Assembly (NCBI GenBank): GCA_977018835.1
Contig: OZ361258.1
Location: 2,666,001-2,730,000, forward strand
Source: Minutocellus sp. GHC0000111
Taxonomy: Eukaryota
DNA length: 64,000 nt
Direction: 5' to 3'
Positions 5,276-38,672 of this stretch are shown in pieces. The first letter of the stretch is position 1; each line of letters opens with the position of its first letter. The notes under the pieces were generated by a model that searched no databases, was not told the origin of the DNA, and saw only the letters and a program-made list of their open reading frames with translations. The position numbers and the translations under genes are program-made.

Positions 5276-7435
5276 CTATCTACCGGTACCTTCCGAATTC
5301 CATTTGTCTAGCCAATCCACCTTGTAGCCATTGACGATGCCTTTGAGCTCATCATCTCGATCGAATTGGTGTGCAACGGGGCTTATGCTTCCGTCCCAAT
5401 TGAGGACTTCGTTGGTTCCCTCCTTCAATAGACCTCGCTCTCTCAAGGGCTTATCCCTCAGGAGACCAAGGTTGTTGATAATGCCCTTGCCCTGCTCCCA
5501 GAGTTTGACGCTTTCAATTCCTTTCACTCCCTCCAAACCATGTGAGTAATGCAAGTAGTTGTGAAAGCCTTGGTCACAGCCTTTGACTTTGCAATGTGTC
5601 TCATCGAATTGGACCACCATCGCTCTCAAGTAAGCTTCGATGGCAACTTGCTCTCCCATAGTAGAACCAGAGCAAACCACTGGCTTATCGAAAAATGGAG
5701 ATACATTATCCACCCCGTATGCCGTCTTGAGCCATCGCGAGTTGAACTGACTCTGTCCAATGGTCGTGGCCTCGGCATTCTCCTCAAAAAAGTAGAGTTG
5801 TCCACTTTCGGCTTGCTCATCATCTTCTCTCGGCAGGCCCTTGAAGGGGTCGGTCTGGAATACTGCATCACGAGAATCAATCAGCATGAGCCAGCTATTG
5901 GCATGGTAAGCTAGACTCCATGCCCAGTACAGCTCATATCGGGCCGTTGCCACAGGTCTAGCCTCCCGAGGATCGTCCGCCGGTTGGGGTTTGGCATCGG
6001 GAGAATCGGCATCTGATGTGCCGTACATGCCACTGAATTGACATATGCGCATTCCCTCCTTAGGACCAGACGCAAGCTTTCCCGAGCCGGTGTAGCACTT
6101 CCAATCGACGGTGTACACAACCAAATTCGGTTGAGCACGCAGGTACTTCTCAACGCCTGGCTTCAACTTATCAAGAGACGATACACTCAAAACGACGTCG
6201 CCTGTAAAACCGGTAGCCTTGAGTGACTCCATAAATGCCAGATAGATCTTGATGTCGTATCCCTCGGCAAAGGCAAAGATGGCATCCTCGTCCGGTCGAT
6301 GCTTACCAAATGTCGGCTCGAGGATAACGACGGCGTCATCGCCCACCATGGCAGCTGGCGAGGGATATTCTTTGATTGGTTCGGCGCCATCTTTTTTAGT
6401 CACAGCAGCAGCTTCTGCTTCTTTCACTACTTCATCTTCTTTTGCCGTATTTTCAGCTTCATCGTCCTGAACAACCACTGTCTTCATGGCAACCATCTTT
6501 CCCATCGCCCCTTGGACTCGTCCGTTCTCCTCAACAACATGATCTTGCACCTTGGTCCAGAACTTGTCATCTTCTGCCTTCAATTCCGCCTTGCGCTGCT
6601 CTACCTTTTTGGTCCATTCGGCCTCATTCTCCTTGGTCGTCCATGCGGGTATGTCATCGCCCAGCCATTGCGTCAGCGTTTTGACCCCTCGATCCTTGCC
6701 CTTGGCCTGCCGTTCTTTCAACTTGCGCAACTCAACCTTGAGCTTCTTCTCACCATCGACAAAGGAGGATGGCTGAGCGAGCATTGCCGCCGTAGCTTCT
6801 CCTACTGTTGTTTGTGCATCATCTCCACCTTCGTCAATGTTGTCGCCACGGGCATCATCTGATGCAGCAGCTGCATCCGTATCTGCGTCTGCGTCTGCAT
6901 CCGTATCTGCATCTACCACTATTGCTCCAGAATCGTGGGGATGCGTATCCTCGGCATCTTTGTGCGGTTCCGGTGGCAGACGCTGCTGTTCGGGTGGTTC
7001 ACCATCGTCATGCTCGTGAAAGTTACGGGCAATTTTACCGGCATTTTTGTTCGTCGAATCTTCAACAACTGATGGACCTCGCTGCCCTATTGGCCTCTGG
7101 TTACTGTGGGTTGCTCCCGCACTGCTACTGGCAATATCTAGCGGAACAGTCTTTTCTGGTCGTCGGAGGTGACCCTTCTTATCACGCATGCTGCCCACAA
7201 CGAAAAGGAGCACGGCGAGTCCCAACAGCAGATAGCAGAACCAACCCGACGATGTACCCGGGGATGAGCGGTAGATGTTACCGCCGCCGCCAGGAGCAAC
7301 AGCACGGCCACGGGATCGGTGGGGATGCGTCTTGTCCTCACCATCCTTCTTGTGCTGTGCCGAGTACGACGCCGAGGGATGGCCTCCCAAGTGGGATGGC
7401 GATGACGCCTGCCCCTCGTGCTTCCGTCGCAGCAT
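5276..7435 (-). CDS. Type II membrane protein, putative GT-A glycosyltransferase-like
   Basis: One N-terminal TM helix, acidic stem, LIDSRDAVFQTDPF, CSGSTMG, DQGFHNYL and HQFDR motifs. Confidence 0.7.
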   Translation of the reverse strand: MLRRKHEGQASSPSHLGGHPSASYSAQHKKDGEDKTHPHRSRGRAVAPGGGGNIYRSSPGTSSGWFCYLLLGLAVLLFVVGSMRDKKGHLRRPEKTVPLDIASSSAGATHSNQRPIGQRGPSVVEDSTNKNAGKIARNFHEHDDGEPPEQQRLPPEPHKDAEDTHPHDSGAIVVDADTDADADADTDAAAASDDARGDNIDEGGDDAQTTVGEATAAMLAQPSSFVDGEKKLKVELRKLKERQAKGKDRGVKTLTQWLGDDIPAWTTKENEAEWTKKVEQRKAELKAEDDKFWTKVQDHVVEENGRVQGAMGKMVAMKTVVVQDDEAENTAKEDEVVKEAEAAAVTKKDGAEPIKEYPSPAAMVGDDAVVILEPTFGKHRPDEDAIFAFAEGYDIKIYLAFMESLKATGFTGDVVLSVSSLDKLKPGVEKYLRAQPNLVVYTVDWKCYTGSGKLASGPKEGMRICQFSGMYGTSDADSPDAKPQPADDPREARPVATARYELYWAWSLAYHANSWLMLIDSRDAVFQTDPFKGLPREDDEQAESGQLYFFEENAEATTIGQSQFNSRWLKTAYGVDNVSPFFDKPVVCSGSTMGEQVAIEAYLRAMVVQFDETHCKVKGCDQGFHNYLHYSHGLEGVKGIESVKLWEQGKGIINNLGLLRDKPLRERGLLKEGTNEVLNWDGSISPVAHQFDRDDELKGIVNGYKVDWLDKWNSEGTGR

Positions 7436-7846
7436 TGTTAATTTATATCAACCCCCCACGTAACAATCTCTACTAGTACGCAGGACAATCGCCCTTCTTC
7501 GACTTCTCCAGTGACCGGCGATTGCGAGTACACGTATGCGAAGTGATGATCGTTGCTTTCCTACAAAAGAGGCAATGCTGATGGTGAGGATACAACGAGG
7601 CGTTTACTTCGCACTTGTTGATGGCCATTTTTGTGGGAGATAAAAACGAACTTTCTGCAGAAAGCGCCAGAAAGCTGGAAAGTGTGAAACAATGTCCCGA
7701 TTCATGGTGTGGTTTTTACAGGCTGGGCAGGCTTGCGGAAAAACAAGTGTCAAAACCAATCGCCAGAGTTTGGCGATCGGGTTGCACATCATGTGAGCAA
7801 TGGCTCATTTGCGCTCGAAAGCAGCAGCACCTCATTATTCCTCGAC

Positions 7847-9889
7847 ATGAATATGCTGCGAGCGCAAGGAAAGCAGACCGCTGCGGCGGCGCTGCAGAAG
7901 AAGAGCGCAGTACAGCAGCCTTCTCCACAACAAGGTACTGCCGGCGCGGCAAGGCTGGCAGGCGATATGGGCCGCGCCGATTCTACAAAAGCCGCCGATG
8001 GGTCCGGCATAAAACTTTTCGATCACTTTCTCATCGAAGTGTTTGGCGGTGTTGCTTCTTCCGATTTGGACCCGTCGTATCTCGAGGACGGCGGCATCGA
8101 GCAGTTGGGCCGCGCATATGCCACATGGCTCGCAGATACTAACATACCACTCAATTTTGAAAAGTATCTCAACGATTCCAGTCTCGTCCCATCGAAATTC
8201 CTCAAGTACACGACCCTCAACGAATATTTGGGCAAGGCACTGAATTTGCTGGAGAAGATTTGCCCTGACGACCCTCTCTGGAAAGACGATGGTCTACGTG
8301 GAGAGTTTTCTGGTGCATCTTTTAAGAAGGCCTGCCAACGCAGCCAACAGCAAAAGAGTGACACCTTCGGACAGGAGCCGAAGCTTGCTCTGTATCGGAA
8401 AGCTCGTCATGGGGATGGAGAAACTACCACCGCGCCTCCCCACTGGATGAACCTCCTCAATGTTGAGGATATTGGAAAAAATATGCTCCGCGCTACGAAG
8501 ATTGGTGATGTTGCAACTGGCCTTGCTGCCAAACGCCTTGCACTTGTCCTTACCAAGCACGGTGTCGGCAGAGGAGGCGAAGTGAAGTACCTTGATACCG
8601 CTCACTTCAAATTCGATCCTTTTCTGATGGCGCTGGATACTATGTGGACCGAGCAGAAGACGCTCAACAGATATTCCTGCCCTTTCGTTCCAAACAAGGA
8701 TGAACCGTACAGCGATGTATTTCATGCTCTTGGATCACATGTGGTTGTTGAGAGGGGACTATATCGCATGCAGTCGGATGATGGGAAGAAACTGAACACC
8801 CACCTCTTTCCACAGCTGAGAACCATGGCTGGAAGTGGTGCATCGCGGTGGCAAACGTCGGCGATACAGAAGAATTTATCGGATGCGACACCAAAAGAAG
8901 AGAGGAAGAAGGTCACTGCCAAGTCGTCGCGTATCGGATCTATTACTGAAATGGGTGCTATGAATGTGGGGTTTTATCCCAGTCATGCTCGATCTGGCCA
9001 TACCGTTGGCACCAACCAAGAGAACTATTTCGACCGCTCCGATCCTTCTGTCTCTTTGTCAGCGGCGAAGGCTCTTGCTGGTTGGGTCGATTTTGGCGCC
9101 TTTGTTCATCCTCCTAATCTTCGTTGTCTGGGAGTTGATAAAGAGGTTACCGACAGGCTTATCATGAAACTCGTCAACTGCTCTCTCCCTGATTTTTTTC
9201 CGAACGGCCGTCTCTACCCAATCGTCGAAATATGCATCGCTTCTTTGATTATGTACGATGTCCAAGTCACTTCTGACCTCGGTCCAACGAATGCTGTGAG
9301 TCTTGCCCTTCGAGACGGATTCAAGGCAGCTAACATATTGGATTCTCGCTCCTCCTGTGGCACTTTTATTGGAGCTCTCAAATGCTGGTCCGAGCTCATC
9401 TTGAAAGACTTCAAATCCCGCAATCCTGATTTCCAGCCTCTTACTAATGCTAGCAATAGCATTCAAGTTATCAATACTCTCAATCAGCAATCTCAAATGC
9501 TGTCTCAGCTTTCGAACGAACTTGCCGACCTGAAGAGACAGAACATTCTGCTCCAGACTCTGCTTGAGGACGAGCGACAAGATCGGAAGGAGATGGGAAG
9601 TATGTTCAATTTGCCGAAATCGCCCGAGCCCAAGTCCAGCAAGAAGAGAAAGACAGACGAAAGTTTTATTACCAGCACCCCTGTGCAGTTGGATTACCCA
9701 CCTGAAGAGGTGGAATTGGAGAAGAATTATGACAGCGTCGACGCCGATCAACTTCATGGAGGAACTGCGTTGCACGACATTATATCCGGTGCATGCAAAC
9801 AGGGTCTGCTGAACGATGGATTTGTTTTTACGGGTTTGGAGAGGCCGGGCAGGTTTACAGACAACGCCAAGTACAACCACTGTCTTGAC
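7847..9889 (+). pseudogene. Tyrosine recombinase (Crypton-type), 5' part, 681 codons
   Basis: Catalytic-motif order R (GRGGE), K (EQKT), KxxR in place of HxxR (TAKSSRIGS), H (ARSGH), Y (ENYF), then KALAGW. Frame is cut at the TSD and the LTR supplies a stop at 9893-9895. Confidence 0.8.
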
Positions 9890-10084
9890 TGCTAAGAGGT
9901 CCTAAAGCTAAGCTAGATAGATATAGCTAGTAGAGGTAATAGGACCTACGTAGATGAAAAATGGGCCATCGGAGATGTCGTTGGCCCATGGATCAACGGT
10001 CAGGAGAGGGCACTGAGTCAGTGGTCTGATCACCGTACATACCGTACGTATGTATACGTACGTACGTATCCCACGGCATCAACA
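9890..10084 (-). repeat. 3' LTR (195 bp)
   Basis: Matches 15902-16097 except one 1-bp indel and one substitution (10039 A vs 16052 G). Confidence 0.97.
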
Positions 10085-10094
10085 CACCCTCGCA
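10085..10094 (-). promoter_or_regulatory. Polypurine-tract-like plus-strand primer site
   Basis: Element-sense TGCGAGGGTG directly abuts the 3' LTR. Confidence 0.6.
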
Positions 10095-10132
10095 GATCAA
10101 TGACTAGTGCCATTGAATCTACATGTAGAGTC

Positions 10133-13100
10133 CTAATTGGAATCTACATGTAAGTAGACTGGTCGCATGTCGACATGGTAGCGGGCGGGATGGTGCTTTG
10201 TAAAATAATCGGCCAAATTTTGCGCTCCTTTCCGCCAGTCAGCACACCTGGAATTGTCGTTGCTCTCCATGCGATCTTGGACCCAGTGGCAGAATCTCAT
10301 GTCCACAGCCTTAGACCGTCTTTGCTTGACGGTTTTATTGGCGATTCCAGATGCTGTAGAGTTGTCAACGACGATAGCAGTAGGGGGCTGCGGGTGACCC
10401 ATTTCTTCTAGTGCTGCCCGGATTGGTGCTGCATCTTTCATGTTGAAAAACAATCCTCCCAATTCGGCTTCAGCGGCTGAGGACATTACACATGCTTGAT
10501 GATGTTGGCATTGACGAGGATGGCTCCATTCATTGGTGGCATGGGATCACTTGAGTCAGGCTGGCGGTGCGGGTCCTTAGGTCGGGAGCTTAGGCAGAAG
10601 CACCCTCCGAGCTTGCTTCTTGATTTCGGGGCTGACAAGCAGGAGGCGTCGCTGTGTGCACATGTGGGATCATGTCTGACTTGACGTGTCGAATGACTGC
10701 GTCGGGATGGGTTGCAAGGTAATCTAGAAGCTTCTTGGCATCTTGTCGAGTGCGCTCGGTAGCTTTGGATTGTTCCGCTGAGATGCTGTTGAGCGCCGGT
10801 AAAATTGTTGAATCAATTGCTCGACCATGGCACAAGGAGCTGCCCACCACCTGTTGAATTTCGTTGATGCCTTCGGCGTCGAGTGGTGGTGAGTCGTCTT
10901 CCGGTTCTGGCAGCTGGGGTCCCGGGCCATGCGTCGGACGATTCCATCGATATGGCGCATGCTCGGGCCGTGAGGGGCGGTCGTGTTGGAACTTGAGGCG
11001 CATCTCCTTGACGTAGTTAGGCATAGATAGATCCACCCATTTGGCCTCGTAGTTCCACTCGAGTTGAACACCACAACAAAGTCGGCCTTCCCAATCGGTG
11101 GTGATCTTGTGCTTGGAGTTGAGGGCCTGAATGAGATGGTCTGCATGCTCTTTCCCGACATGCTTTACTCCAAAATCGTCAACGGTTAGGCAAAAGGTAA
11201 TTGGGCGGGTTTTGTGCCTCCAAAGGCCGGCAGCACGCTTGCAAGGGAAATAGCCATGGGGTTTGAGATGCTTGACAAGTTGATCGTAGGCTAGGCGCCC
11301 TGCCTGGGGTAATCCACACATTCCGCCATCGATTCTGACCAACACTCGACCATTTTTTACTTTGTCGTGGAGGTCGTAGGCTTCCATGACTTAGTCGGGG
11401 ATGAGAGCTACTGGCGCCCACATCCATTCTGGCTCTGGCATGGTGCTATTGAGATAGAAGTCACTGACATCAATTCCCATGAAACGAGCGTTGTCTGTAG
11501 AGATGACGCTGTTGAAAAGTAACTTTGCAGTCAACATTTCAGCGGTCGGGGTCGAGACTGTACGAGGGCAATGAATTTTGTCGCCTCCTGCAGTCCATCG
11601 AACTCGATTGGGATTTGGTTTATGGGAGCGATAGTCGGCGACAATGCGGAGGTATGTGGCTTTTTCCCCCCGAGGCAGTTCGGACCAGTGGACGAAAGCC
11701 ATTGTGTTGGAGAGAGTGCTAGCACTGTTTCCAACTCGGCCGTCCGTTAGCCGTCCAATTTCATCGATGTTTGCTTGAATGAATTGGTCCCTCATGTTTG
11801 TTTTGAGGAGGTCGCGGTATTCAAGCATTGCACCAGTATCGGGATGGACGACGGCGTTAGCAAAGTGTTGGAGGTTTGGTAAAGGCGAGAAAGCTGCCAT
11901 GTTGGCCACGTGGTGGGCACTGCGACGAGATGATGGCCGTGGGGGAGGGTTCCGATGTGGAATGTACCCTCGCTGACGGTATGATCGTCGTCGAGGTGGT
12001 TTGGCGGTCGATGGTTTGGACTTGCTTGTCGATTTTGCTGGAGCTGGCAATGTTGGAGTGGTGTCGATTGTTGGAGACTTGCGTTTACGTTGCCGACGGG
12101 AGGTGGGGGCATTGGAACTTTGATTGGATGTTATGACGGTTGCATCGTCGTCATGACTGTCATCATCGTCGCCGTTGGGCTCGTCTACTGCAGCCAAAGG
12201 ATTGTAGTAGTTGGAAGAAACTGACGAGCGAGGTGGCGCGTTGGATCGACGTGATCGACGGCTTTTTGTGGTGGCTGCATCACATGTGGAGGATTTTGCC
12301 ACCCTCGGAGGTTGCTGGGGCTGAGGTAACGGAGCGTTGGGGTTGGAGACAAGGTGATGGCCTACTTCAGTCTCGTTCATCTCTTCTACGTCGTCGTCCT
12401 CGTGTTTGATTTTGTAGCACTTATACTTCTTGTCAAATGCAACGACTCTACCCTTGTAATTGCGATCTCCAAACACTTTGGCGACGATGGCACCGAGGCG
12501 GAATCGTTGGGAGTCGTCATCGTTCTCCAGCACCCTCGGAGCTGCGGTTGTCTGCATCGTCTCATCAGAGGCGGAGGTGGCAGATTCTGCTGGGGTCACG
12601 CTGTTGAAAATCTCGGAGAGCTTTTCTAAAGCTTGACGATGCTCGTCTCGAAGGGGAGCAAGGGGTGCCGCTGGATGTGGATTCTGTAGAGCGTGCAGGA
12701 GTTCATGAGCTGCGACTATTGCTGCATCGGCCGACGACGTTTTGGGTACCGGAATCATTTTGGGGAGCCAGACGAGTGTGTTACCAGTGCGTTCCGCCCG
12801 AGTTTCCTCAATCCAAACCTTGTAACACCGGTAGTGTTCCATGGCTGGACCGACATAGTACCCATCAACGCCATGCGGGGACCAAGAGCCGCGTGCCGAG
12901 GGCATCTCGTGAAAGATGACCTTGCATCCGAGGGGGCCGAGAGGCGTGCGATTGAAATCAAAGCCGCCATTGAGTTGCTCGTACGCTGATAGTCGAGGGT
13001 TGACTCGGGATGCTCTCAGGAAATTGAGGGTCATTACCGCCTGCTCCAGCAATTTATCCCACAAGATGAGGGGAAAGTCGGGATCGGTACCACAGAGAAT

Positions 13101-14318
13101 CGCAATGAAATGATTCTTAAAGGTTCGAATGGCTCGTTCGGCCGCATTTCGGCGGTGGGAGTGCGTTGGGGTCAATTGAAAATCTACATCCTTTTCTTCC
13201 ATGAACTCCTTCAGCTCTCGACTCACTTCATTATCCAATCGTTGCAATTTTGGGCGAAATCCTCGCTTGGAGAGGCATTCGAAAATAGTTTGGCACGCTC
13301 GGCGCATTTCCGTTCCCGATCGGCTTTTCATTGGTTCGGCCAAGATGCTGTTGGAGTCATAGTCATAGACGACCATTGTGTGCTGGTGGCCAGAAATAGA
13401 CGATACCAAGAAACGGCCGGGCTGATCTGAGAAGATCTGGCCCGTTATGTCATGACAATCAGCAAAGACATAGTTGGTGCGCTGTTGGTGTTGTGCCGGG
13501 TGGAGATCCTGCTCGGTTTCGTCCACCCCAGGGAGAGATTTTGGCGCAGCCATCGACCGTTTGGGCTTGGTCGACCTGATGTTCTTGCGCTGCTGGTCTA
13601 AGTGACCTTTAATCATCGGTATCGACTGTGGCATGTGCTTACGTACAAGCTTTGATGTGAGGCCTGGCCAAGATCTATAAAATCCCGCATCGATTGCTTT
13701 GCACCAGGTAGATAGCTGAGGACTGCCAGCGCACCCATGTAAAAAGGCTACACGTTCCGGAACCGTCTCCTGGGCAATTGCGGCGTTGGCAGCATGTTGG
13801 ATGACGTTGGGGCCGGGGAGCGGCGACATGGTGGGCGAGCAATTAAGATCTACCATCCACAATTTCGTTGAGGGGTCTCGTTTACCTTGCAAAATGACGG
13901 TGTTGTCCTTGGCGATGACTACCGAATCCTTATCGAAAGTGGCAACACATCCATCGTCACACAGCTGCCCAATCGATAGGAGCGATGATGCCATATTATT
14001 GAAAATATAGGCCTTGCTAGCCGATGGGGAAACCCCAGGGAGGCGAAGCGTGGCCTCGTGGGTGTTCGTCATTGTGCTGTTATCCGGAAGGGTGACGCTG
14101 ATAGGAATTGCTGTCTGTTTTACGTTGAAAATAGGGCCATCGTACGACAGGTATTGGGGCTTCTGGACAAAATGTCCCGTCGTTCCAGTATCTGCTGCGA
14201 GGACGATTGGCTCTTGAGTTGGAGGTTTGCTTTTTGACGTAAGAAAAGCTAACGAAGGCGGGGAGGAGGTGGGTTCAGACATACTATCCTCTATTTTACA
14301 CTGATTAACATCCACCAT
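10133..14318 (-). pseudogene. pol: Copia pol (protease, integrase, RT, RNase H), disrupted
   Basis: PR ADTGTTGHF; IN FSDQPGRF / RLDNE / NAAERAIRTFKNHF; RT IDVSDFYL, LPQAG, VDD; RNaseH HSDAS, SSAAEAELGG, VDNSTA, NLADYFTK. In-frame TAA at 11391-11393 and frameshifts near 10655, 10490, 10265 and 10240. Confidence 0.95.
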
Positions 14319-14327
14319 CCCTCCCGC

Positions 14328-15608
14328 TCAGTTACGACGCGAGCTACCACCGCAAGGATTGCACTTGGTGGCGTTATCAACGTGGTTGGGCCCTTTGCAA
14401 GTGCATTCAAAGCTGGGGTGGTTGGACGAATAGCCGCACGTGTGGCAATAATGGCCTCTGGGGAGGATCGACTGCAGTTCCCGCTTCTCCTGGCGGTTGA
14501 GGTTAGGACCTTGGCCTGGGAAGTGGCCGGCGCCGTTCTGCTGGCCACCGCCGCGGTAGCCTCCACTGCCACCAGCATGGTTGCGTCCCTCACGCAGAAC
14601 GCGGTTCTCGGCCTTGAGTGAAGCTGTTTCTTGACGAAGTTTGGCAATGGTGTCATCCTTCTCGTTGCCCTTTTTTGCGAGGTTCGCCATCATGGCTTGG
14701 TTGGTCTTGAGGGCTTCGGTGGCATCAGCCAAAAGGAGATCGGCTCGAGAAAGAAATGGATCGTCCGAGGCCGATGAGGCCAAATTCGCGCCATGACATC
14801 CTGCCGCTTCGGTGGTGGTATTGGCCATCTTCTTATCATGCCAATCGCGGAAGTCCGACTGCATGTTGGCCCACGTGCGTTCGGCCTCCGGTCTGTCGTC
14901 CCAGTCCTCGCATGCCTTCTTTGCCAATGAGAACCTGCGCACGGAGCGGTAGAACTTGGAGACCTTTTGCTTGTTGGTGAAGGGTTCGCCGGCCGTTTCA
15001 AACGCCTTGAAGACTTTGTTGAATGTGGCGATGTGGGTGTCGATGGGTCCCCCGTCGCACTGCTTCTCGAGCTGCTTCTCTAATTCCTCCTTCTGAGTCT
15101 CGTTGAATTTCAAGTAGCGATCGGCAATGCTGTCGATGATTTGGCGGATGGTGACTGGCTGGAAACCGAGCATGTCATCTTCGAGATGATTGATGTAGAC
15201 GGCGTCGATCGAGTCGAGGAGGAGATTCTTGAGCGCCGTGTTGACTTGCTCGTACAAGTTGCAGTGGCCCTTTTCGATGTGATGTCCCCGGATTGCACGA
15301 TCGCGTTGGTCTAGATTGGCCACGGCGGGAATGGTGGGGCTGGGGCCAGGATTTGCCGGAGGCGCATGTGGTCGGCCGTCACTTTTGGTGGTGTGTTCGG
15401 CATCGCTGACGACGAGGCCCAAATGGCCGAGGTTGTGGTCATTGCACCCTGCTGGAATGCTGGCCGCCGCTTGTTGAAGTTCCTTGAGCGCTTTGGCAAC
15501 ACGCTCGCGTTGGGGAGGTTGTCCTGGGTCATTCATGCGTGTGATTAACTTGGTGGGGAGAATCGGCGCTGCGCCGAGAGGTTGGCCAAAAACTGCGTCG
15601 GGATTCAT
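14328..15608 (-). CDS. gag: Copia gag
   Basis: 426-aa ORF upstream of pol with GHLGLV, PANPG and C-terminal knuckle-like YCHTCGYSSNHPSFEC. Confidence 0.88.
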   Translation of the reverse strand: MNPDAVFGQPLGAAPILPTKLITRMNDPGQPPQRERVAKALKELQQAAASIPAGCNDHNLGHLGLVVSDAEHTTKSDGRPHAPPANPGPSPTIPAVANLDQRDRAIRGHHIEKGHCNLYEQVNTALKNLLLDSIDAVYINHLEDDMLGFQPVTIRQIIDSIADRYLKFNETQKEELEKQLEKQCDGGPIDTHIATFNKVFKAFETAGEPFTNKQKVSKFYRSVRRFSLAKKACEDWDDRPEAERTWANMQSDFRDWHDKKMANTTTEAAGCHGANLASSASDDPFLSRADLLLADATEALKTNQAMMANLAKKGNEKDDTIAKLRQETASLKAENRVLREGRNHAGGSGGYRGGGQQNGAGHFPGQGPNLNRQEKRELQSILPRGHYCHTCGYSSNHPSFECTCKGPNHVDNATKCNPCGGSSRRN

Positions 15609-15889
15609 GCTGCTGGTGTTTCAGTCAGCGAAGACAGGCAGCGCGGCGGTGTTGCTGCGAGACGTGTGATCAACAGAAGGTTCGATCCAGAGAAGTGTGA
15701 TCGATTGGATGGGTCGATCTGGTCAGGACTTTCGGGGAAGGGATTGGATCGTCGTTCCAATATTGTCGAAAGAAACGGTCGTTTTGGCCGATTGAAGATG
15801 TGTCGGTTTTTCTTGCGTGACGAGTGAGAACCCAAGACAAACCGGTGAGGTGCGAACCGAAATGGGGCGAGCACGGGTGGAAAAGATGT

Positions 15890-15901
15890 ATCACGTAGGT
15901 C
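15890..15901 (-). promoter_or_regulatory. Primer-binding-site position (non-canonical, no TGG)
   Basis: Element-sense GACCTACGTGAT immediately follows the 5' LTR. Confidence 0.55.
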
Positions 15902-16097
15902 TGCTAAGAGGTCCTAAAGCTAAGCTAGATAGATATAGCTAGTAGAGGTAAATAGGACCTACGTAGATGAAAAATGGGCCATCGGAGATGTCGTTGGCCC
16001 ATGGATCAACGGTCAGGAGAGGGCACTGAGTCAGTGGTCTGATCACCGTACGTACCGTACGTATGTATACGTACGTACGTATCCCACGGCATCAACA
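15902..16097 (-). repeat. 5' LTR (196 bp)
   Basis: Element-sense TGTTGATG...TAGCA, flanked by TSD TTGAC. Confidence 0.97.
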
Positions 16098-16102
16098 TTG
16101 AC

Positions 16103-16411
16103 CTTCTCGATGCTGTTGTTGAGGACGACGAGAAGAAATTCCTGTGTAAAAAAGGCCACAGTGATCAGGCTCTAGAAGATAAAGTCCGCAGTATTTCTCG
16201 GCGTGCATTAGACCTGCTAAACAAGATGGAAGGCTCTCCCGAAGATGGCAACCACACAAGGAAGGATGGATGCTCTCTGGTGTGGGTTCGTTCGCGAGCC
16301 CAAAAGATCAAAACTAAGCACAAAGCAAGCAGCATGAAGGAGGCATCGGAAAGCAACTCCCAGACATCACTTGATTCTCATTTTTTACGCAAAAGCGGCG
16401 GCAGTAAGTAG
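16103..16411 (+). pseudogene. 3' part of the Crypton tyrosine recombinase ORF (102 codons + TAG)
   Basis: Removing the Copia and one TSD joins ...NHCLD|LLDAVVEDD... in frame, giving a 783-aa ORF. Confidence 0.85.
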
Positions 16412-16921
16412 ATATGTAGCTCTCGAATTTATTTGTTGTGATGGTGCGTGATGTGATTCGGGTGCGCGATTTCGAGGGGGTTTCTGGAAAGAATTCGCCA
16501 CGTCAGCAGCGCTTTTAAGTCTCACTGGATGTCTTGCACTTTCCAGAAAGCGCGGCCGGCGCGCGCGGTGCGCCGTCCCGGCGTCGTCCGTTCCTCGCGG
16601 CGACACGTGGCCGCTGCGCGGCCACTTTCCAGCCGGAAAGTGTGATTTTTTTGCGGTTGCCGTTTGCTCTGCAACGTCAGCAGATTTCTTTTTGTGCTGG
16701 CTCATCCATGCATTGTGAGAGCCATGGTAAGGTAGGTGCCAACACTTGCGCATTGCACGACACAGACGAATGGTGTGGTGGACCTACCACGTAGCTCCAT
16801 AGAGGCAGATCACGTACCGTGTCCACGCCAAGAGCACTTCATGAGGCCCGTGGTCAGCGCTCCGATACCTTTATTCGCTCACATTCACCGAAGCCGGCCA
16901 CACTCCTTGCCTCCTCTCTTC

Positions 16922-17679
16922 ATGATGACTGCCGGCGGCGTTGGTGACACAAGCCCTCTGCTATCGAAGCCGCAGGCGCTGCTTTCCCTCCCTTCTGCTC
17001 TATCATCCATCCAGCTTCCACCGATACCGCTTTTATGTCTCTATTCCGCGATACTGATCATTGCATCGGCCGCAACGTGGTTGTATTTGCGCCTCTACCA
17101 TCCAATAGTTCATCCCTACCCCTGGACGCTGGCATTTTCTCCCTCACGACGGATAAGGTGGTGTTGGCAGGGTCGTACAATCCACCGCATCGGGGACATG
17201 TCGCCATGCTGTCCTATTTGTCGCAGAGATACGGCGAGGTGATTGCCGTGGTGGGGATGAATCCAGCCAAAAAGTATGCCGTAAGTCCACAACAGCGGGC
17301 AGAATTCATCCAGCAAATGATCGATGCCGAGGAAGAAATCAAGGACAATGTCCGTGTCGAGGTGGTGCAGGGGTACATCTGGCGCTTCGCTTTTCGAGAG
17401 GGTGTGTCGATCATGTTCCGTGGCATCCGCAGCTGGGCCAAGGATGGTGACGAAGAACGATATCTGCATTTTCTCAATACGTGGGGACCCATGGTGTTCG
17501 GTCCACTGCGTTGGCCATTGCCGACGCAATTCTTGGAGGGAAAGCCAGAATACAATCACATATCGAGCACGTTGATTCGAAACATGTGTGTGGAGGCCAA
17601 GAAGAAAGGAACCGAGGCGGATTTAACTGCATTGGTTCCGGAAGGAGTTGCCGACGGTGTTGCCAAGGCATATTGCTAG
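16922..17679 (+). CDS. coaD: Phosphopantetheine adenylyltransferase (CoaD-like), apparent frameshift between N-terminal TM segment and catalytic domain
   Basis: LAGSYNPPHRGH (HxGH), NPAKK, RGIR and ISSTLIR in frame 17035-17679; hydrophobic leader from ATG 16922 lies in another frame. Confidence 0.8.
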
Positions 17680-17753
17680 CTAGCTACACTAATAAGTACA
17701 TAAATATCACGTGAATGTCTCTAGCTACTAATAAGCACATAAATATCACATGA
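17680..17753. repeat. Short imperfect tandem repeat (~34 bp x2) between convergent genes; second instance at 32256-32329
   Basis: ctagctacactaataagtacataaatatcacgtga / ctagctactaataagcacataaatatcacatga. Confidence 0.75.
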
Positions 17754-17888
17754 GGCTACCTATTCAGTTGAATATGGTTCTAACTTTTCATTATGATAGA
17801 TAGATTTAAGCTATATTTAGCGGGACGAACACCACCACCAAAATATCACGTGAAGTCTCTACTGTAGCCAAGACTCGCTCTGGCGAGC

Positions 17889-18911
17889 TCACTCTCTGGC
17901 CTTATTGTGCTGCTTGTAGTCAGGCAGATAAGGAGCCGCCATGGTGAACATCTCCGTGAAAAAGTTGTAGGGGATGAAAAAGGTTCCCATGCGCGTACCC
18001 CAAGCCATACTTCCCAAGTCGCGAAGGGCACAGACACCGATACTACGGAGGATATCGTTGGGGAGCTTCTGGGGTGGCACGGCACTCTTCTGCGCGGCCT
18101 CCATAAGCTCAATCTTGTGATCGACCTTGTCGTAAAAGTTACTGGCCACCGGTGATGGGTGTACGGCGACGACATCAATCCCGAGATTCTGAACCTCGAT
18201 GTGCAGACTGCAGGCGAATTGCGACACAAAGGCCTTCGTCGAGGCATACATGGCAGCGAATGGAGTGGGGATGAATCCCGCCACAGACGACGTGAAGACA
18301 ATGCAACCCTTCAGCTTCTTCTCCACCAGAATCTTGACAAAGTGATGCGTAACGTTGACCGAGGCTGTGGCATTGCACTCCACATTGGCCAAAAGCTTGC
18401 CGATGGGCGCCTGGTCCAGAAATCCGGTAACGATGAAGCCAGCGTTGTTGAAAATAACCTGCACATCAATGTCCTTGGTCTTGGCCTTGATGGACTTCAT
18501 GTAATCCACACCCGGACTGAAGTTCACACCGACGGGCCGGAACTCCAAATCGGGATACTCGGCCTGCAATTCCTTGATGGTGGTCTTGAGGAAATCATCG
18601 TCGAGCGACACCACCACAACGTTGAGCCCCTGCGAGGCCAGCTTGAAGCACAGGGCCTTGCCAATACCGCTGCCACCGCCCGTGACGAGGGCCCACTTGG
18701 CTCCGTACTTCTTCTTCAAGTCGGGCACGGGACGGAAGGCCATGAACAGCTGGGGGATGAGGTAGGCAATGAACCAAAAGGTGGCCGGAACGGCCAGGAC
18801 GGCGATCAAATAAACGGCATATGGCGACAAAATGGCCGGAACCTCGACGGGATCCGGCATGATGCATTCCGGCACCGCCGGCTCCTGGGATGAGAACAAC
18901 GACCAGCCCAT
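17889..18911 (-). CDS. Short-chain dehydrogenase/reductase, KCR/17beta-HSD12-like
   Basis: N-terminal TM, YGAKWALVTGGGSGIG, NNAG, YASTK; likely ATG at 18911. Confidence 0.9.
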   Translation of the reverse strand: MGWSLFSSQEPAVPECIMPDPVEVPAILSPYAVYLIAVLAVPATFWFIAYLIPQLFMAFRPVPDLKKKYGAKWALVTGGGSGIGKALCFKLASQGLNVVVVSLDDDFLKTTIKELQAEYPDLEFRPVGVNFSPGVDYMKSIKAKTKDIDVQVIFNNAGFIVTGFLDQAPIGKLLANVECNATASVNVTHHFVKILVEKKLKGCIVFTSSVAGFIPTPFAAMYASTKAFVSQFACSLHIEVQNLGIDVVAVHPSPVASNFYDKVDHKIELMEAAQKSAVPPQKLPNDILRSIGVCALRDLGSMAWGTRMGTFFIPYNFFTEMFTMAAPYLPDYKQHNKARE

Positions 18912-19410
18912 GTTGGTTTTGTTATCGGATAACAAAATGGCGCTGCGATGATAACAGCTGATGATAACCCAAATGGCCAATGACGTCGTGGCCCATTGAT
19001 CAAAAAGGAGTTATTGCGTATGAGGGGCCCTGCAGCCCTTTTCTTTGTGACGTCCGTGCTTTCCGTTGGCCGCCTCCATTTTTCGATACCGCGTTGGAGT
19101 CAAATAGCCCAAGAATACATCAGCCAGGACATATTGCTGGCTGGGGTGGAGCTGAACCTCCTCGCTTTGCTTTATACCATTGAAAGGAGTTGGTTTGATA
19201 GCGACCGCCTCCTGATTGATTCAGCGTAGTCAACACATCTTGTGCCGATTTTTATCGGATCGTGTCTGATTCCCGGTTGACCAGCGGCCAAGCCGGAGGC
19301 AATCCCATCAACGTTTTTGTACCTTTCTTCAGTTGAACCGGTTCAGATAAACCTTGAAAAACTGCCACCAGGACCTTAACGGCAGGTCCATTTATAGAAA
19401 AGCAGCAACT

Positions 19411-20802
19411 ATGGAGTCCTCCTCCGAAAAAGTGGCACGAAGGATACGAAGGAGAGGTGCGAAAGTGGCCACCACCACTACTACTGCTGGGTCACGCCCC
19501 GCGCCTCTCGCGATCCTGCTTCACGCCCTCCTCACATTCTTCGCCGTCGTCCAACGTAACGTCCGGCCAGTACAAGCTCAGAGCATCAACATAGGGTCCT
19601 TTATTGATCAAGACACCCTCGATCGATGCAAGGCTGCGCTCAACGAGGCTGACACCGACGACGATCTGATGGTGACGGCCGAGGAATACATTACGTACGT
19701 CAAGGGTGAATCCGGCCTGGCCATCGAGACGGAAGCCGATGAGCTAGTTGAGATCCCACTGTCGTTGGTCATGCTGTTCATTCGATATGCCTGTCAGTGC
19801 GTCCAGCGTCCCGGTGCGACGCCGCAGTGCTGCCACGGAGAGAATGCCCACCTCAACATTGCCGACGATGGATCGACCACCCAGTCGGTGTTCTTTTTGG
19901 ATTTCTGTCTGGATGCGCAGGATGCCATCGAGGAGGTGATGGTGACGGCATCGCCCACTCCAGCCCCGACCGTGGCACCGACCTTTGAGAACCAAATGTC
20001 AGTGAGGTTTCAGTACACTCTGACCAACGAAGATGGGCTGAATGCCGAGGCAGTCATGACGGGTGCTGGTGGAAACACGCTCAAGGCTGATCTGGAGGCC
20101 GCTACAAGGACCATCGTAATTCGAACACTGAACGAGACCAATCCTGATGCCTTCCGGGGACGTAAGAGCGTGGACAGTACCATTGGGTCCATTCCTCACG
20201 CCACTCAGGGTCGTGATCCGAGTACTGCACGCAAATCATCAATATTCGAAAAAGTCAGGAAGAACAAACTCGAGAGGCATCAGCAGCTGCACAGCGACGA
20301 GCCTGCAGATGTGGAAGGCGATGATACCGACCGGAGACTATTTGATTACGATGCCAACATGCAGCTATACCTTGACGATGGTGCAGGTCCATTTCTTCAA
20401 AAGTGCGGCATCGATGTTTATCGCCTCGACGAGGACACCTTGGAGGAGAGAGCGATTGCTCTGTCTCTCGCGGAGCTTTACCACCGAGCACAGCAAGCGA
20501 AGAGAGGTGATCGCCAAGTGCAACAAGGAGGTCAAGGGGTAGAATATCAGGATGGTCATCGGCACGACCGGCGTCGACTGGTAATTTACACGGATTTGTT
20601 GTTTATTGATATTTATCTTGTGCTCGATGATCCAACCTGCCCGCCGCTGTCTTCTATCGAGTGCCTAGTGATATTCACTCGCATACGTCTCCTCCTGGAA
20701 GAGGGAGATGACCAAGAGATGGTAAGAGACTTGGTTTCACAAGGAATGCGAAATAGCTTCGCCGATGGGTCCTTCATCGCAGCGATACCTGATAGCGAAT
20801 AG
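19411..20802 (+). CDS. Hypothetical secreted/membrane protein with EF-hand-like and Cys-rich segment
   Basis: Hydrophobic signal-like stretch, ADTDDDLMVTAEEY, CQC...CC, TASPTPAPT linker. Confidence 0.6.
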   Translation: MESSSEKVARRIRRRGAKVATTTTTAGSRPAPLAILLHALLTFFAVVQRNVRPVQAQSINIGSFIDQDTLDRCKAALNEADTDDDLMVTAEEYITYVKGESGLAIETEADELVEIPLSLVMLFIRYACQCVQRPGATPQCCHGENAHLNIADDGSTTQSVFFLDFCLDAQDAIEEVMVTASPTPAPTVAPTFENQMSVRFQYTLTNEDGLNAEAVMTGAGGNTLKADLEAATRTIVIRTLNETNPDAFRGRKSVDSTIGSIPHATQGRDPSTARKSSIFEKVRKNKLERHQQLHSDEPADVEGDDTDRRLFDYDANMQLYLDDGAGPFLQKCGIDVYRLDEDTLEERAIALSLAELYHRAQQAKRGDRQVQQGGQGVEYQDGHRHDRRRLVIYTDLLFIDIYLVLDDPTCPPLSSIECLVIFTRIRLLLEEGDDQEMVRDLVSQGMRNSFADGSFIAAIPDSE

Positions 20803-20975
20803 TGGACTTGATAGTGGTGATGCTACGGTACAAGGATGTTGATGTTGCAATGAGGAATGCTAATGCAATGGGATCTTTCGGGGCAGCAACACCAACATCA
20901 ATGCATGTAATTTAAATGGCATAATAATACTTATTATTGAAATTTTAGGACGTTTCAATGCCATTTGTATGTACT

Positions 20976-21776
20976 TTATTTATCGCTCTCATCATTACTA
21001 CCCTCATCTCCCTGCTCATCTTCATCGCTCTCTCCATCGGTTGGCACCGCCTCCACCTCTCCTTCACGATACAACCACGCTCCCTGTCGGATATGCTTTC
21101 CAGCCCTGGCAAAGGTTGACGTTTCCATGAAAGCCGTCTTTTCCCTTGAATCACGTTGCGTCATCGTTGCAACAAACTTGACTTTGGCAATCTGTTGGTC
21201 TCCTTCTCCTTCGAATGACTCTTCCAAAATGTTGCACTGTTTGAGCTCAAAGTTATCGTAGCAATTGATCTCAATGTCGTGCTTCATTTGATCTATATCT
21301 GCCTGGAAATTCTTGTTCAGTGGATGGACCGAGCCGACAATGAAATCAATCTCACGCTTGGCATACGCCGAATACCGGGCCCGCACAATCTGCTCCGGAG
21401 TTGCATTTGCGAACGCATCCGCACTCTTGTGGATGCCACCGCAGCATTTCATATATTCGAGTCCAGACCCACAGGGACAATCCTCAACCGCCGCACCGCC
21501 GAAACCAGAGGTGGAACGCTGTCGGTTGCCCACACCCCTGATCTTTTTCTTCTTCTTGGTGCCACCCTTCTTGGCAGTGAGAGTGGTTGTGGTGAGAGCT
21601 GGAAAATCAGATGCCGATCGAGCCGTGGAAGTGCCGATGGCGCGGGATGCAGTGAAGGCACATACCGCCGCTGGAGTTGTGGCCAACAAGGCGAGGAGAA
21701 GAACAATTCTTCGGGCCGTCATCGTGGTGGCTGAAGCAAGCAAGGGCGACTTGGCTGAAGGCAGAGAGTCGATCAA
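20976..21776 (-). CDS. YchJ/SEC-C motif protein, plastid-targeted
   Basis: CPCGSGLEYMKCC, TPEQIVRARYSAY, WLYREG; signal peptide with VCA-FT cleavage motif. Confidence 0.88.
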   Translation of the reverse strand: MIDSLPSAKSPLLASATTMTARRIVLLLALLATTPAAVCAFTASRAIGTSTARSASDFPALTTTTLTAKKGGTKKKKKIRGVGNRQRSTSGFGGAAVEDCPCGSGLEYMKCCGGIHKSADAFANATPEQIVRARYSAYAKREIDFIVGSVHPLNKNFQADIDQMKHDIEINCYDNFELKQCNILEESFEGEGDQQIAKVKFVATMTQRDSREKTAFMETSTFARAGKHIRQGAWLYREGEVEAVPTDGESDEDEQGDEGSNDESDK

Positions 21777-22240
21777 TGGCGCACAATGAGCTGCACAATG
21801 GCAAGTACGTGGACGGTGCGGTGTTGGAAGTATCGATCAGCGATTACTTTATTTGTTCATTTAGAAAGCCCCCGCAGTATGTGGTGTCAAACCGCATCTT
21901 TTGAAGATGACATGCTCCCATGTTTTGCGTGTTGTTTAGCATTACTAACATTTTAAGCTTGGCGAGTACAAGATACCGCCCAGTGACATAGCACACCTGC
22001 GTGTTCTCTGTCCCGCGACCTTCGCGCATCTCGTTTTTCAACATGCGGTGGACGATGCGACACGTCAAACTGAAATTTGGCACATCATATCGAAAGTAAG
22101 CCAAATGCCAACGATGACCTCTTGCCGCGGCCGCATAAAATGAGATGTGCACGAGAACGACCGTTTATTATGACCGGGTGATGACCACAATCTTTTCTTA
22201 ATCTGTATATCTAAAACGCACCCGAATTTATCATTTCATC

Positions 22241-24016
22241 ATGACGCTCGAAATCTCCTCGCCATCGGCGTCGGCCCCTCTTACGGCCTCTGCATCGCCG
22301 GTCGTTGGCGGTGGTGGCAAAAGCAAATGGTCACCTTGGGTGAAGAAGCCATTATGGGCCGCAACCGATCCGCACTTAGTGGCATCCGTGGATGGGGAGG
22401 CTGGAGCACAGACGCATCTGGCGCGACATCTGACGCTGTTCGATCTCATCTGTATTGGAGTTGGTGCTACGATTGGAAGCGGCGTATTTGTGCTGTGTGG
22501 CCTGGTCGCACATAGCTATGCTGGTCCTGCGACCTTTCTCTCGTGGGGAATCGCTTGCATGGCAGCTACATTAAGCGGACTATGTTACGCAGAATTGGCC
22601 GGTCGTTTCCCTGCTGCTGGGTCATCCTATGCCTACAGTTTTATCGCGTTGGGAGAATTACCAGCAGTTCTAGCTGGCTCTTGCATGACTTTGGAATATG
22701 TCTTCTCTGCAAGTGCCGTTGCCAGGTCCTGCGGAGACAAGGTCGTGGAATATGCAAAGGCGAACATGGATCCAGATTCGAATCACCCTATACTCAATTT
22801 TCTGGAGCCAGGTGGCGGAGTGAATCCATTTGCATTCATCATCTCGACTGTGGCAATAGGGTTGCATCTCCGCGGAGCACGCGAATCGAAGGGCGTTACC
22901 AACGTCTTTTCACTTCTCAAGGTGTCCTTGGTGATCTTCATGACGGCGGTAGGTTACAGCCTACTTCAGCCAGCAAATCTTACACCAGTGGTTCCACAAG
23001 AGTTTGGTATTTCAGGCGTATTCAGAGGCGCTTCGACCTTGTTCTTCGGTTACATTGGTTACGATGAGATCTGTTGCGTCGCGGGAGAAGCTATTAATCC
23101 ATCTCGAAATCTGCCACGGGCAGTAATCGCTTCGCTGGTGACCGTTACGATCCTCTACATGGTAGCTGCAGTAGCACTGACTGGAATGGTACCATACGAA
23201 GAAATTAGTGAAACATCTCCATTCCCGGATGGCTTCCGTTACCGTGGCGTAGAGTGGGCATCACATCTAAGTGCAATTGGCGAGCTTGTCACTCTGCCCT
23301 TGGTCGTGCTGGTATCAATCATGGCACAACCGCGGCTGCAGTACGCCATGGCCCACGATGGTCTTCTCCCAGCAATATTTGCTTCCCTCGATTCGAAGGG
23401 GAATCTGTGGTGGGGAACTTTGATCTCAGGCGTGGTCATGATAATCATTGCCACGTTTGTGCCATTCACGTATCTCAATGATCTCATTAGCGCAGGAATC
23501 CTCATTGCTTTTTCAATGACCGATGCCAGCGTGATTCTGCTCAGACACAAGTCTCCAGAGAATAAGCCACTCTACTTGGAGAAGTTATTGGGCGCATTCA
23601 ATGTCCTTGCAATAATATCTGGAATTCTGGTTTCGTACTGCGCAGACACATTTGAAGGACAATGCTTCTCAGCATTATTTGGCTTGCTTCTGCTTGCGGT
23701 TGGATTCGAATTGCAAAAAGTTTGCGCTCGATCTCCTTCTTCGGAATCTACTCCGGCCGACAAGGAGGGCTTCAAGACACCCATGGTGCCATTGTTGCCT
23801 CTACTTGGAATGGCTGTGAATTGGTACCTGATTGCACATCTTGCCACGTTCAGTCTTATCCTCTTGGCAATATATCTCGTCATTACATTCGCAATCTATT
23901 TTCTGTATTCTTCTAGGCATAGCGTGGCCAATACTACTGGTTGGATTCGGCATGATGGTGATGATTCCGGCGGAGACGGTAATTTTGAGCTAGCAACTGG
24001 GCACAAGATAACTTAA
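22241..24016 (+). CDS. Cationic amino-acid transporter (APC/CAT family)
   Basis: LTLFDLICIGVGATIGSGVFV, CYAELAGRFPAAGSSY, FFGYIGYD, PRLQYAMAHDGLLP. Confidence 0.93.
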   Translation: MTLEISSPSASAPLTASASPVVGGGGKSKWSPWVKKPLWAATDPHLVASVDGEAGAQTHLARHLTLFDLICIGVGATIGSGVFVLCGLVAHSYAGPATFLSWGIACMAATLSGLCYAELAGRFPAAGSSYAYSFIALGELPAVLAGSCMTLEYVFSASAVARSCGDKVVEYAKANMDPDSNHPILNFLEPGGGVNPFAFIISTVAIGLHLRGARESKGVTNVFSLLKVSLVIFMTAVGYSLLQPANLTPVVPQEFGISGVFRGASTLFFGYIGYDEICCVAGEAINPSRNLPRAVIASLVTVTILYMVAAVALTGMVPYEEISETSPFPDGFRYRGVEWASHLSAIGELVTLPLVVLVSIMAQPRLQYAMAHDGLLPAIFASLDSKGNLWWGTLISGVVMIIIATFVPFTYLNDLISAGILIAFSMTDASVILLRHKSPENKPLYLEKLLGAFNVLAIISGILVSYCADTFEGQCFSALFGLLLLAVGFELQKVCARSPSSESTPADKEGFKTPMVPLLPLLGMAVNWYLIAHLATFSLILLAIYLVITFAIYFLYSSRHSVANTTGWIRHDGDDSGGDGNFELATGHKIT

Positions 24017-24096
24017 AGGCCATGGTGGCTACGAAGACTTGTCGGGTACTGATTGCTAGTCGGAATCTAATTCTATTATTAATTTGTTTATTACAA

Positions 24097-25473: not shown

Positions 25474-25689
25474 TGGTTGTCTCAAACGTGGGGTGCGTTC
25501 GTGGCTCGGCCCAGTGAAGAATGAAGGCGACTGAATGAAGCGAAGCGAAGGGAAATAAAAATCAGGGGGGGGGGGGGCAATTGGTCATTCCGTCATCCGA
25601 GCCGAACGAACTCTGTCGAACAGGGAAGAAGCTTTTCTCAGTGCCCCTCGGCCCTCGCCTCCTTGCCGTGGTCGCATAAGAATGGAACG

Positions 25690-26888: not shown

Positions 26889-27222
26889 TGTGCTTATTTG
26901 AGACCTCAGATTGTGGGGACATTTGTTTGCTCTCTCTAGTACATGTATCTACATGTACCGGTAGGATTCCTAGTCTAATTCTAACGCACCTTGTCGAGCT
27001 ACAGGCTTTTACGTCGTAAGAAAGAAAAATATTCAAAACCGTTGGCTTGGTCATCATCACACGGCACGAGGCACGGGGCCCAGAGCCGGCCCAGGCAGCG
27101 CAGCTAGTAGCAGCGCATCCGCATCCAGCCACAAATTAAATACTAGCTAGAGTGCGGCGAGTAAGTCACAGCATGAGCATGACTTGATGATATGCCTTGG
27201 TCGGAGGTCGTCGGTACCAATA

Positions 27223-29265: not shown

Positions 29266-29450
29266 TCAAACTGCAGCTAGCTGAGGCAGACAATACGATA
29301 GAATCTACAAGATATTTGCATAGTAGATAACCGTTCATACGTATAACAATATTTTGCATGACAAGCTCCCAATAATATGTAGTATAGATCTAGCCGACGA
29401 AGCGAGGAGAGGTCCTGAATGGATGTTTATTTCTTTACCAAATATTGACA

Positions 29451-38592: not shown

Positions 38593-38672
38593 AGGCCATG
38601 GTGGCTACGAAGACTTGTCGGGTACTGATTGCTAGTCGGAATCTAATTCTATTATTAATTTGTTTATTACAA

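What the first reader, a model, noticed from the sequence alone, without database searches (positions are those of the whole stretch)
7611..16727. Crypton ends show the same TpA loss, and reverting to TA restores perfect palindromic subterminal sites
Seen: copies of one motif differ only at dinucleotides reading CA, TG or CG. gcactttccagaaagcgc (16536-53) becomes gtactttctagaaagtac; cactttccagccggaaagtg (16623-42) becomes tactttctagctagaaagta; tttctggaaa (16481-90) becomes tttctagaaa. The left end 7651-86 becomes ctttctatagaaagtactagaaagctagaaagtata. There is about 1 TpA in 16431-16727, and TpA resumes immediately after cATGG. Knowledge (recalled): CryptonS elements often end in TATGG, so CATGG would be a mutated terminus. 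Inference: a transposon with no RNA intermediate was hit, so the process acts on DNA and could destroy recombinase binding sites. TA->CG implies both strands were hit. Caveat: for these non-coding motifs alone, ancestral CpG with ordinary 5mC decay explains CA/TG/CG equally well.
Basis: partly seen in the sequence, partly recalled or inferred. Interest (0 to 1): 0.8.

Follow-up and report, generated by a model that had tools for sequence, protein, structure and literature searches.

The report
TpA-erasing mutation in nested diatom transposons
A diatom DNA transposon carries an inserted retrotransposon whose TA steps have been heavily rewritten to TG or CA on both strands, likely by an undescribed host mutator acting on DNA, but the DNA transposon's TA-poor end motifs are shared with sister lineages and are not ruined palindromes.

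Summary
The element is a 2.8-kb Crypton-like tyrosine-recombinase transposon split by a Copia insertion. Contig evidence places its ends at TGTGG (7632-36) and TGCGG (16652-56), so CATGG (16723-27) is likely host DNA. Sister-lineage contigs carry the same CA/TG/CG letters in the right-end motifs, and the 16623-42 'palindrome' is made by a 15-base deletion private to the window. The mutational process itself is real. In the nested Copia pol, A>G changes hit TA contexts at 19 of 129 chances versus 1 of 567 elsewhere, on both strands, mostly in TAY; a host gene shows 0 of 54. The Crypton gene shows a weak version (3 of 55 versus 1 of 253, p about 0.02), the only evidence here that an element without an RNA stage was hit. 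My literature searches found no description. This scan noted the same process earlier in two other diatom genomes.

The parts
7632..7636 (+). Inferred left terminal direct repeat (TGTGG) of the Crypton-like element
   Evidence: Single-locus contigs of X1 and X2 end at 7663, which by 31-mer overlap puts the divergence from another copy at 7633; X14 joint from 7635 to 16674
7637..7852 (+). Left subterminal region with motif cluster at 7649-7686; TpA observed/expected 0.20
   Evidence: no other letters in X1 over 7300-7663 or X5 over 7453-7716; sister-lineage letters not seen
7853..9889 (+). Tyrosine-recombinase-like gene, first part; candidate TpA hits at codons 8738 (Y>H), 8888 (I>T), 9731 (N>D), 9794 (Y>C)
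   Evidence: 24 homologues, alignment A1, fold closest to Flp, Ndc10, XerH, Cre, polarised changes
9885..9889 (+). Target-site duplication TTGAC of the Copia insertion (repeated at 16098-16102)
   Evidence: joint 9884 to 16098 with 5 letters fitting both sides in X1, X2, X5
9890..10084 (-). Copia 3' LTR, TpA-rich (observed/expected 1.69)
   Evidence: one substitution (CG/CA) and one indel against the other LTR
10085..15901 (-). Copia internal region (gag 14328-15608, pol about 10100-14318, with a premature stop and frameshifts) carrying the strong TpA signature
15902..16097 (-). Copia 5' LTR
16103..16407 (+). Recombinase gene, last part; conserved GY(T/S)GVG tyrosine reads cysteine at codon 16271
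16538..16629 (+). Right subterminal block conserved in sister lineages in its TpA-free form; likely protein-binding sites
   Evidence: X14 record 1 has 0 other letters over 16538-78; X15 and X17 have 6 other letters and 2 gap letters over 16538-16629 while neighbouring sequence does not align
16623..16642 (+). Apparent palindrome made by a 15-base deletion that fuses two motifs
   Evidence: X2 insertions behind 16630 and 16631; matching loose ends in X14, X15, X17
16652..16656 (+). Inferred right terminal direct repeat (TGCGG)
   Evidence: Multi-copy X2 contig ends at 16652, so another copy diverges at 16653
16657..16727 (.).
   Evidence: X14 contigs join the left flank to 16671-16708 and go on to 16751-76 without the element

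Best explanation
A Crypton-like DNA transposon with likely ends at 7632 and 16656 was split by a Copia retrotransposon, and a host process that likely acts on chromosomal DNA has changed A to G in TA steps, mostly TAC and TAT, on both strands: heavily in the Copia and probably lightly in the Crypton gene. Shown: the nesting, the context-specific two-strand signature in the Copia, its absence in one host gene, and the conservation of the right-end motifs in sister lineages. Inferred: the chemistry, for which I commit to adenine deamination in TAY by a TadA-like enzyme on silenced repeats (a thymine lesion on the other strand would look the same); and that the conserved CYRG/GAAAG motifs are recombinase binding sites that were already TpA-free before the lineages split, so this copy did not lose them by TpA mutation.
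For: Copia pol against three outgroups (84, 79, 66% identical): 13 of 37 invariant Tyr are Cys (7) or His (6); TA-context A>G 19 of 129, other A>G contexts 1 of 567, p=7e-14; reverse (RIP-direction) TG-context 0 of 204; sense 13 of 68, antisense 6 of 61. Host NAA15-like gene with matched outgroups: 0 of 54 (p=0.001). A second family copy (P0025) has Cys where the window has His, or the reverse, at 3 ancestral Tyr. In the 40 rows that one search listed, 8 of 9 Copia transitions supported by runs X1, X2 or X5 are window CA/TG against family TA (1,181 rows were not shown). Crypton gene: 3 of 55 against 1 of 253, p=0.019; 3 of 20 Tyr of P0001 read His or Cys. Ends.
Against: The Crypton signal is small: 3 polarised changes, one of them (N>D) at a weakly conserved site, and the intact relative P0001 also shows 2 TA-context changes among its 13 derived ones. 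The host control is under purifying selection, so it is not a neutral baseline. The TpA-rich LTRs show no TA-context difference, which a uniform post-insertion sweep would not predict. Across 120 Copia and 24 Crypton homologues, Tyr-to-His/Cys excess over 120 host homologues is slight (p=0.02 and 0.08). No enzyme was identified; no genome is held. The empty-site joint rests on single metagenome contigs with a 28-letter side at 80% likeness, a class the tool flags as unreliable.
Confidence: 0.55

Rival explanations
1. The process acts only on retrotransposon intermediates (RNA and reverse-transcribed DNA strands); the few changes in the Crypton gene are ordinary substitutions.
For: Strong signal only in the Copia (13 of 37 Tyr against 3 of 20, though the difference is not significant, p=0.13); the two LTRs do not differ at TA sites; 5 of 8 listed TA-context sites are shared by part of the family.
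Against: Editing of one RNA would give only sense-strand A>G, but 6 of 19 hits are antisense; TpA-rich LTRs would also be hit in the intermediates, yet keep observed/expected 1.69; Crypton enrichment p=0.019.
Confidence: 0.2
2. One reading: the end motifs once contained TA and were purged by the same process in the family's ancestors, with the recombinase tolerating any pyrimidine-purine step; the TA-free state was then fixed.
For: The core occurs as CA, TG and CG but never TA; the one TpA left in 16432-16656 sits in TAA on both strands, the coldest context (0 of 18); the inferred terminal repeats differ from the oomycete TATGG at the A.
Against: CTAG is a cold context (TAG 1 of 25); host upstream regions can be as TA-poor; an empty-site contig has G at the left repeat position, so it looks host-derived; the one diatom CryptonS in the paper's table ends in CTGTAAG. 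This model is compatible with the best explanation and only adds a history to it.
Confidence: 0.3
3. Ordinary 5-methylcytosine decay of ancestral CG motifs explains the CA/TG/CG variety at the ends.
For: Diatom transposons carry cytosine methylation by DNMT5 (PMC9998398, passages and abstract start seen); single CG-to-CA differences at 7799 and between the LTRs.
Against: CG is over-represented at the right end (1.48); CG-context changes in the Copia are 6 of 210, like the host gene's 3 of 122; the motifs are the same in sister lineages; it cannot explain Tyr-to-His/Cys changes.
Confidence: 0.1
4. Error-prone repair synthesis (polymerase-eta-like, A>G at WA; signature recalled) in methylated repeats produces the changes, with no dedicated defence enzyme.
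For: Both strands, A>G, after T, in repeats.
Against: AA context 0 of 167, where a WA signature predicts many; strong preference for a pyrimidine after the A (p=0.004).
Confidence: 0.1

Closest known systems
CryptonS DNA transposons of oomycetes and Phaeodactylum (Kojima and Jurka 2011, PMC3212892; passages, supplement 1 whole, excerpts of supplements 3 and 4 seen)
   Same: Single tyrosine-recombinase-fold gene, stramenopile host, about 2.8 kb, low copy number, 5-base terminal direct repeats, no GCR1_C hit, conserved C-terminal region.
   Different: Repeats are TGTGG/TGCGG, not TATGG; the His of the R-H-R-Y tetrad is missing in the family alignment; no direct sequence comparison with described CryptonS proteins was made.
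Repeat-induced point mutation (RIP) of ascomycetes (recalled; mentioned in PMC9998398 passages)
   Same: Dense, context-specific transitions on both strands of repeated DNA, sparing the host gene tested, breaking transposon genes.
   Different: Opposite direction and base: RIP makes TpA by C-to-T; here TpA is removed by A-to-G and RIP-direction changes are 0 of 204. Dependence on homology pairing or on the sexual cycle was not tested.
ADAR and APOBEC hypermutation of retroelements; TadA adenine deaminase (recalled)
   Same: A-to-G with a 5' T/U preference, TAC-like context.
   Different: ADAR editing is confined to one strand of an RNA; APOBEC changes are C-to-T; here both strands are hit and a DNA transposon is weakly affected.
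5-hydroxymethyluracil on dinoflagellate transposons (PMC11572971, listing and abstract start only; PMC11071213, passages)
   Same: A thymine modification tied to transposon silencing in algae; its oxidised form reads as C; older studies cited there reported TA and TC contexts.
   Different: Described as a mark, not a mutator, and the paper itself found no sequence preference; not tested in this diatom.

Membership tests
Crypton (CryptonS) | Tyrosine-recombinase fold as the only encoded enzyme | tested here: met
   Model pLDDT 63.5; best Foldseek matches Flp (E 2e-4, low TM-scores), Ndc10, XerH, Cre; single long ORF. Weak match: Pfam and PDB sequence searches found nothing.
Crypton (CryptonS) | Catalytic tetrad R-H-R-Y | tested here: inconclusive
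   R242 invariant, R362, H385 and Y394 nearly invariant in A1; the HxxR His is Lys or Val. Assignment is by recalled motif order.
Crypton (CryptonS) | 5- or 6-base terminal direct repeats, no long or inverted terminal repeats | tested here: met
   TGTGG/TGCGG, 4 of 5 alike, at ends inferred from contig branching and an empty-site path; no inverted repeat of 40 bases or more.
Crypton (CryptonS) | TATGG termini (majority trait only) | tested here: not met
   Neither inferred end is TATGG; the paper's table lists other termini too, and CTGTAAG for the diatom member.
Crypton (CryptonS) | No GCR1_C domain | tested here: met
   No such Pfam hit in 7 family proteins at E up to 1 or in the window ORF.
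Crypton (CryptonS) | Clusters with described CryptonS recombinases in a tree | not tested
   Described sequences were not held as usable records.
Copia LTR retrotransposon | TG...CA LTRs, 5-base target duplication, gag then integrase before an RVT_2 reverse transcriptase | tested here: met
   RVT_2 hit (E 2.5e-5, below the curated cut-off) late in the 84% relative P0026, weak DDE hit earlier.
RIP | C-to-T transitions that create TpA | tested here: not met
   0 of 204 TG-context G>A; 19 of 129 in the opposite direction.
RIP | Restricted to repeated DNA | tested here: inconclusive
   One host gene 0 of 54, but under selection; host 3' noncoding DNA keeps TpA at 1.06.
RIP | Homology-triggered, premeiotic, needs a RID-type methyltransferase | not testable with these tools
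   No genome or crosses available.
ADAR-type RNA editing of retroelements | A-to-G on the sense strand only | tested here: not met
   6 of 19 hits antisense; His/Cys alternatives at the same Tyr.

The most novel reading that the evidence does not exclude
Diatoms have a genome-defence mutator that rewrites TAY to TGY on chromosomal transposon DNA of both classes, a natural DNA adenine-editing counterpart of fungal RIP, and long-lived transposon families escape it by fixing TpA-free binding sites and terminal repeats (TATGG-type ends becoming TGTGG/TGCGG).
Probability: 0.3. Interest if true: 0.88.

Novelty: new variant of a known kind. Interest (0 to 1): 0.58.

Why it matters
If the TAY-specific A-to-G process works on chromosomal DNA, it would be a eukaryotic repeat-targeted mutator with a chemistry unlike RIP, and a lead to a natural DNA adenine deaminase or mutagenic thymine mark. 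This locus adds a sharper context (TAY over TAR, none in AA), opposite outcomes at the same site in two copies, and a first weak test on a DNA transposon. It also warns that reverting CA/TG/CG to TA by eye can build false ancestral palindromes.

Tried and rejected
No whole genome was held, so other copies could not be aligned directly. Searches for family loci in viral and prokaryotic collections found none. Names for the Crypton homologues could not be looked up, so their hosts are unknown. Pfam and PDB sequence searches did not classify the recombinase; a second structural alignment was not run. The breadth test on homologous proteins was slight and is biased towards intact genes. The duplicate right end was rejected as independent evidence. 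GATGG at 7620-24 and CATGG at 16723-27 were rejected as termini. Of 24 listed runs, 6 were laid (X1, X2, X5, X14, X15, X17), all as contigs; the tool showed only the best-supported rows. Paper searches listed no title or abstract start describing TpA-to-TpG/CpA hypermutation of diatom transposons; only listings were read for most, and subscription papers and bioRxiv supplements were not covered.

Full report
Setting. The window is from a diatom: named homologues of a host gene are diatom proteins. No genome is held. A 682-codon ORF at 7847 is cut at 9889 by a Copia element on the minus strand (LTRs 9890-10084 and 15902-16097, target duplication TTGAC) and resumes at 16103 to a stop at 16407. 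Contigs of runs X1, X2 and X5 join 9884 to 16098, so Copia-free alleles exist. The protein has 24 homologues, the best 85% identical and intact (P0001). Its model (mean pLDDT 63.5) matches Flp best, then Ndc10, XerH and Cre, with weak scores. I file it as Crypton-like and close to CryptonS; tree membership was not tested.

Observation. The four quoted motifs are present and 16431-16727 has 1 TpA against 11.9 expected. This is low but not unique: 787 of 63,703 windows do as well, and 2 of 13 host upstream regions have TpA observed/expected of 0.11 and 0.17, against 0.20 and 0.13 for the corrected ends. Some of those upstream regions may be coding. The gene itself keeps TpA at 0.52, like host genes.

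Boundaries. Single-locus contigs of X1 and X2 stop at 7663 and depth rises beyond; a multi-copy X2 contig stops at 16652 and overlaps the single-locus one by 30 letters. With 31-letter words this puts the divergence from another copy at 7633 and 16653, the second letter of TGTGG (7632-36) and of TGCGG (16652-56), each preceded by a T run. A variant at 7664 would also end the left contig, so this is inference. Independently, run X14 has a joint from 7635 to 16674 (1 contig, 28-letter side), a contig that goes from 16674-16701 on to 16751-76, and another whose loose end before 16671 resembles the left flank. The tool warns that such short joints can come from other organisms or repeats, but the three pieces agree with the branching. 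The element is then 2,812 bases without the Copia, in the range of oomycete CryptonS, and CATGG lies 67 bases outside it. TATGG is a majority trait of oomycete CryptonS; the one diatom member ends in CTGTAAG (PMC3212892, passages and supplement 1).

End motifs. X14 record 1 matches 16538-78 with no other letter; X15 and X17 match 16538-16629 with 6 other letters and 2 gap letters, and the 4 substitutions the tool listed there are not in TA context. Neighbouring sequence does not align at 80%, so the block is conserved in its TpA-free form. The X15 contig is 2,871 bases, the length listed for P0001's contig, and its geometry fits a whole element with a 779-codon gene; that it is the intact relative is likely, not verified. 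The motifs at 16481 and 16540 are one 10-mer in opposite orientations. The reverted motif was found only at unrelated loci. The left-end motifs are unchanged in X1 and X5; sister-lineage letters there were not displayed.

The process. In Copia pol, at 764 columns where three outgroups agree, 49 differ in the window and 19 are TA to TG or CA; 13 of 37 Tyr became Cys or His. Per opportunity, TA-context A>G is 19 of 129, AA 0 of 167, CA 0 of 185, GA 1 of 215; CG-context decay is 6 of 210 and the RIP direction 0 of 204. Both strands are hit (13 of 68, 6 of 61). TAC and TAT take 18 of 86, TAA and TAG 1 of 43 (p=0.004); codon structure may bias this. A host gene with matched outgroups has 0 of 54, keeping 20 of 21 Tyr. 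A second family copy has the other outcome at three shared Tyr, which fixes TA as ancestral. Among the 40 rows listed, 8 of 9 Copia transitions seen in X1, X2 or X5 are window CA/TG against family TA; 3 are close to private to the window and 5 shared by part of the family.

Was the DNA transposon hit? At 318 polarisable columns the window has 17 derived changes, 3 in TA context (3 of 55 against 1 of 253 other A>G chances, p=0.019). Two more (Y>H at 8738, I>T at 8888) appear against the 99% relative P0002 and are on the opposite strand. P0001 has 2 TA-context changes among 13 of its own. This is suggestive, not decisive. Against a simple sweep after insertion, the TpA-rich LTRs (1.69) differ by one CG/CA substitution and one indel; many internal hits were probably inherited from a damaged parent copy moved in trans, while sequences needed in cis stay under selection. 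That is inference. A wider test on homologous proteins was slight.

Mechanism. I commit to A-to-G change in TAY on chromosomal transposon DNA, most likely adenine deamination by a TadA-like enzyme, at about 0.55 for the whole reading; no enzyme was identified and a thymine lesion on the other strand cannot be told apart (5-formyluracil reads as C; PMC11071213, passages). RNA-only editing fails the two-strand test; a WA-type polymerase signature (recalled) fails at AA; CpG decay is weak here. Diatoms have DNMT4 enzymes of unknown function related to the RIP enzyme RID (PMC9998398, passages), but RIP's defining C-to-T change is absent, so this works like RIP without being RIP. Whether the TA-free ends are an old imprint of the process or native sites stays open (about 0.3).

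Novelty. Eight paper searches listed nothing describing this signature in diatoms; I read listings only for most, and subscription papers and bioRxiv supplements were not covered. Two earlier notes of this scan report the same process in other diatom genomes; they are not independent proof, and my counts were made here. Verdict: the specific claim about the ends is largely wrong, the Crypton is an ordinary new family member, and the mutational signature around it is real and apparently undescribed.

Noticed in passing
window 16047-30622 and 30623-45198: 14.6-kb tandem duplication with 1 mismatch that begins inside the Copia 5' LTR and truncates the first copy of the gene at 44027-45904; a very recent LTR-linked duplication or an assembly artefact.
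   Followed up: partly
window 9890-10084 and 15902-16097: The Copia LTRs are rich in TpA (1.69) and full of short palindromic runs, in a family whose internal region is losing TpA.
   Followed up: partly
window 8022-9141 and 8487-9333: Joints in X1 and X2 (the first also in X5) at about half the flank depth point to internally deleted Crypton derivatives elsewhere in the genome.
   Followed up: no
window about 9580, 16250-16290, 16425, 16630: The window's Crypton allele has several small indels against X1, X2 or P0001 (21, 19 and 15 bases missing; short insertions in the last part of the gene).
   Followed up: partly
window 7637-7655 and 16636-16651: The two ends form imperfect inverted arms (GAAAGT, short spacer, T run) around the terminal repeat, as a tyrosine-recombinase circle junction would need.
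   Followed up: partly
window 12360-12495 region of pol (residues 609-652 of ORF 11391-14318): The Copia pol carries a Tudor-like domain (PF21743, E 8e-11) between integrase and reverse transcriptase, shared by its closest relatives.
   Followed up: no
window 7436-7631 and 16657-16920: The Crypton sits in a short region between two divergently oriented host genes.
   Followed up: no
L004:2550-3050 and L007:1711-1752: Unrelated metagenome loci: L004 has a cluster of similar TpA-containing motifs, L007 a 42-base near-perfect palindrome.
   Followed up: no
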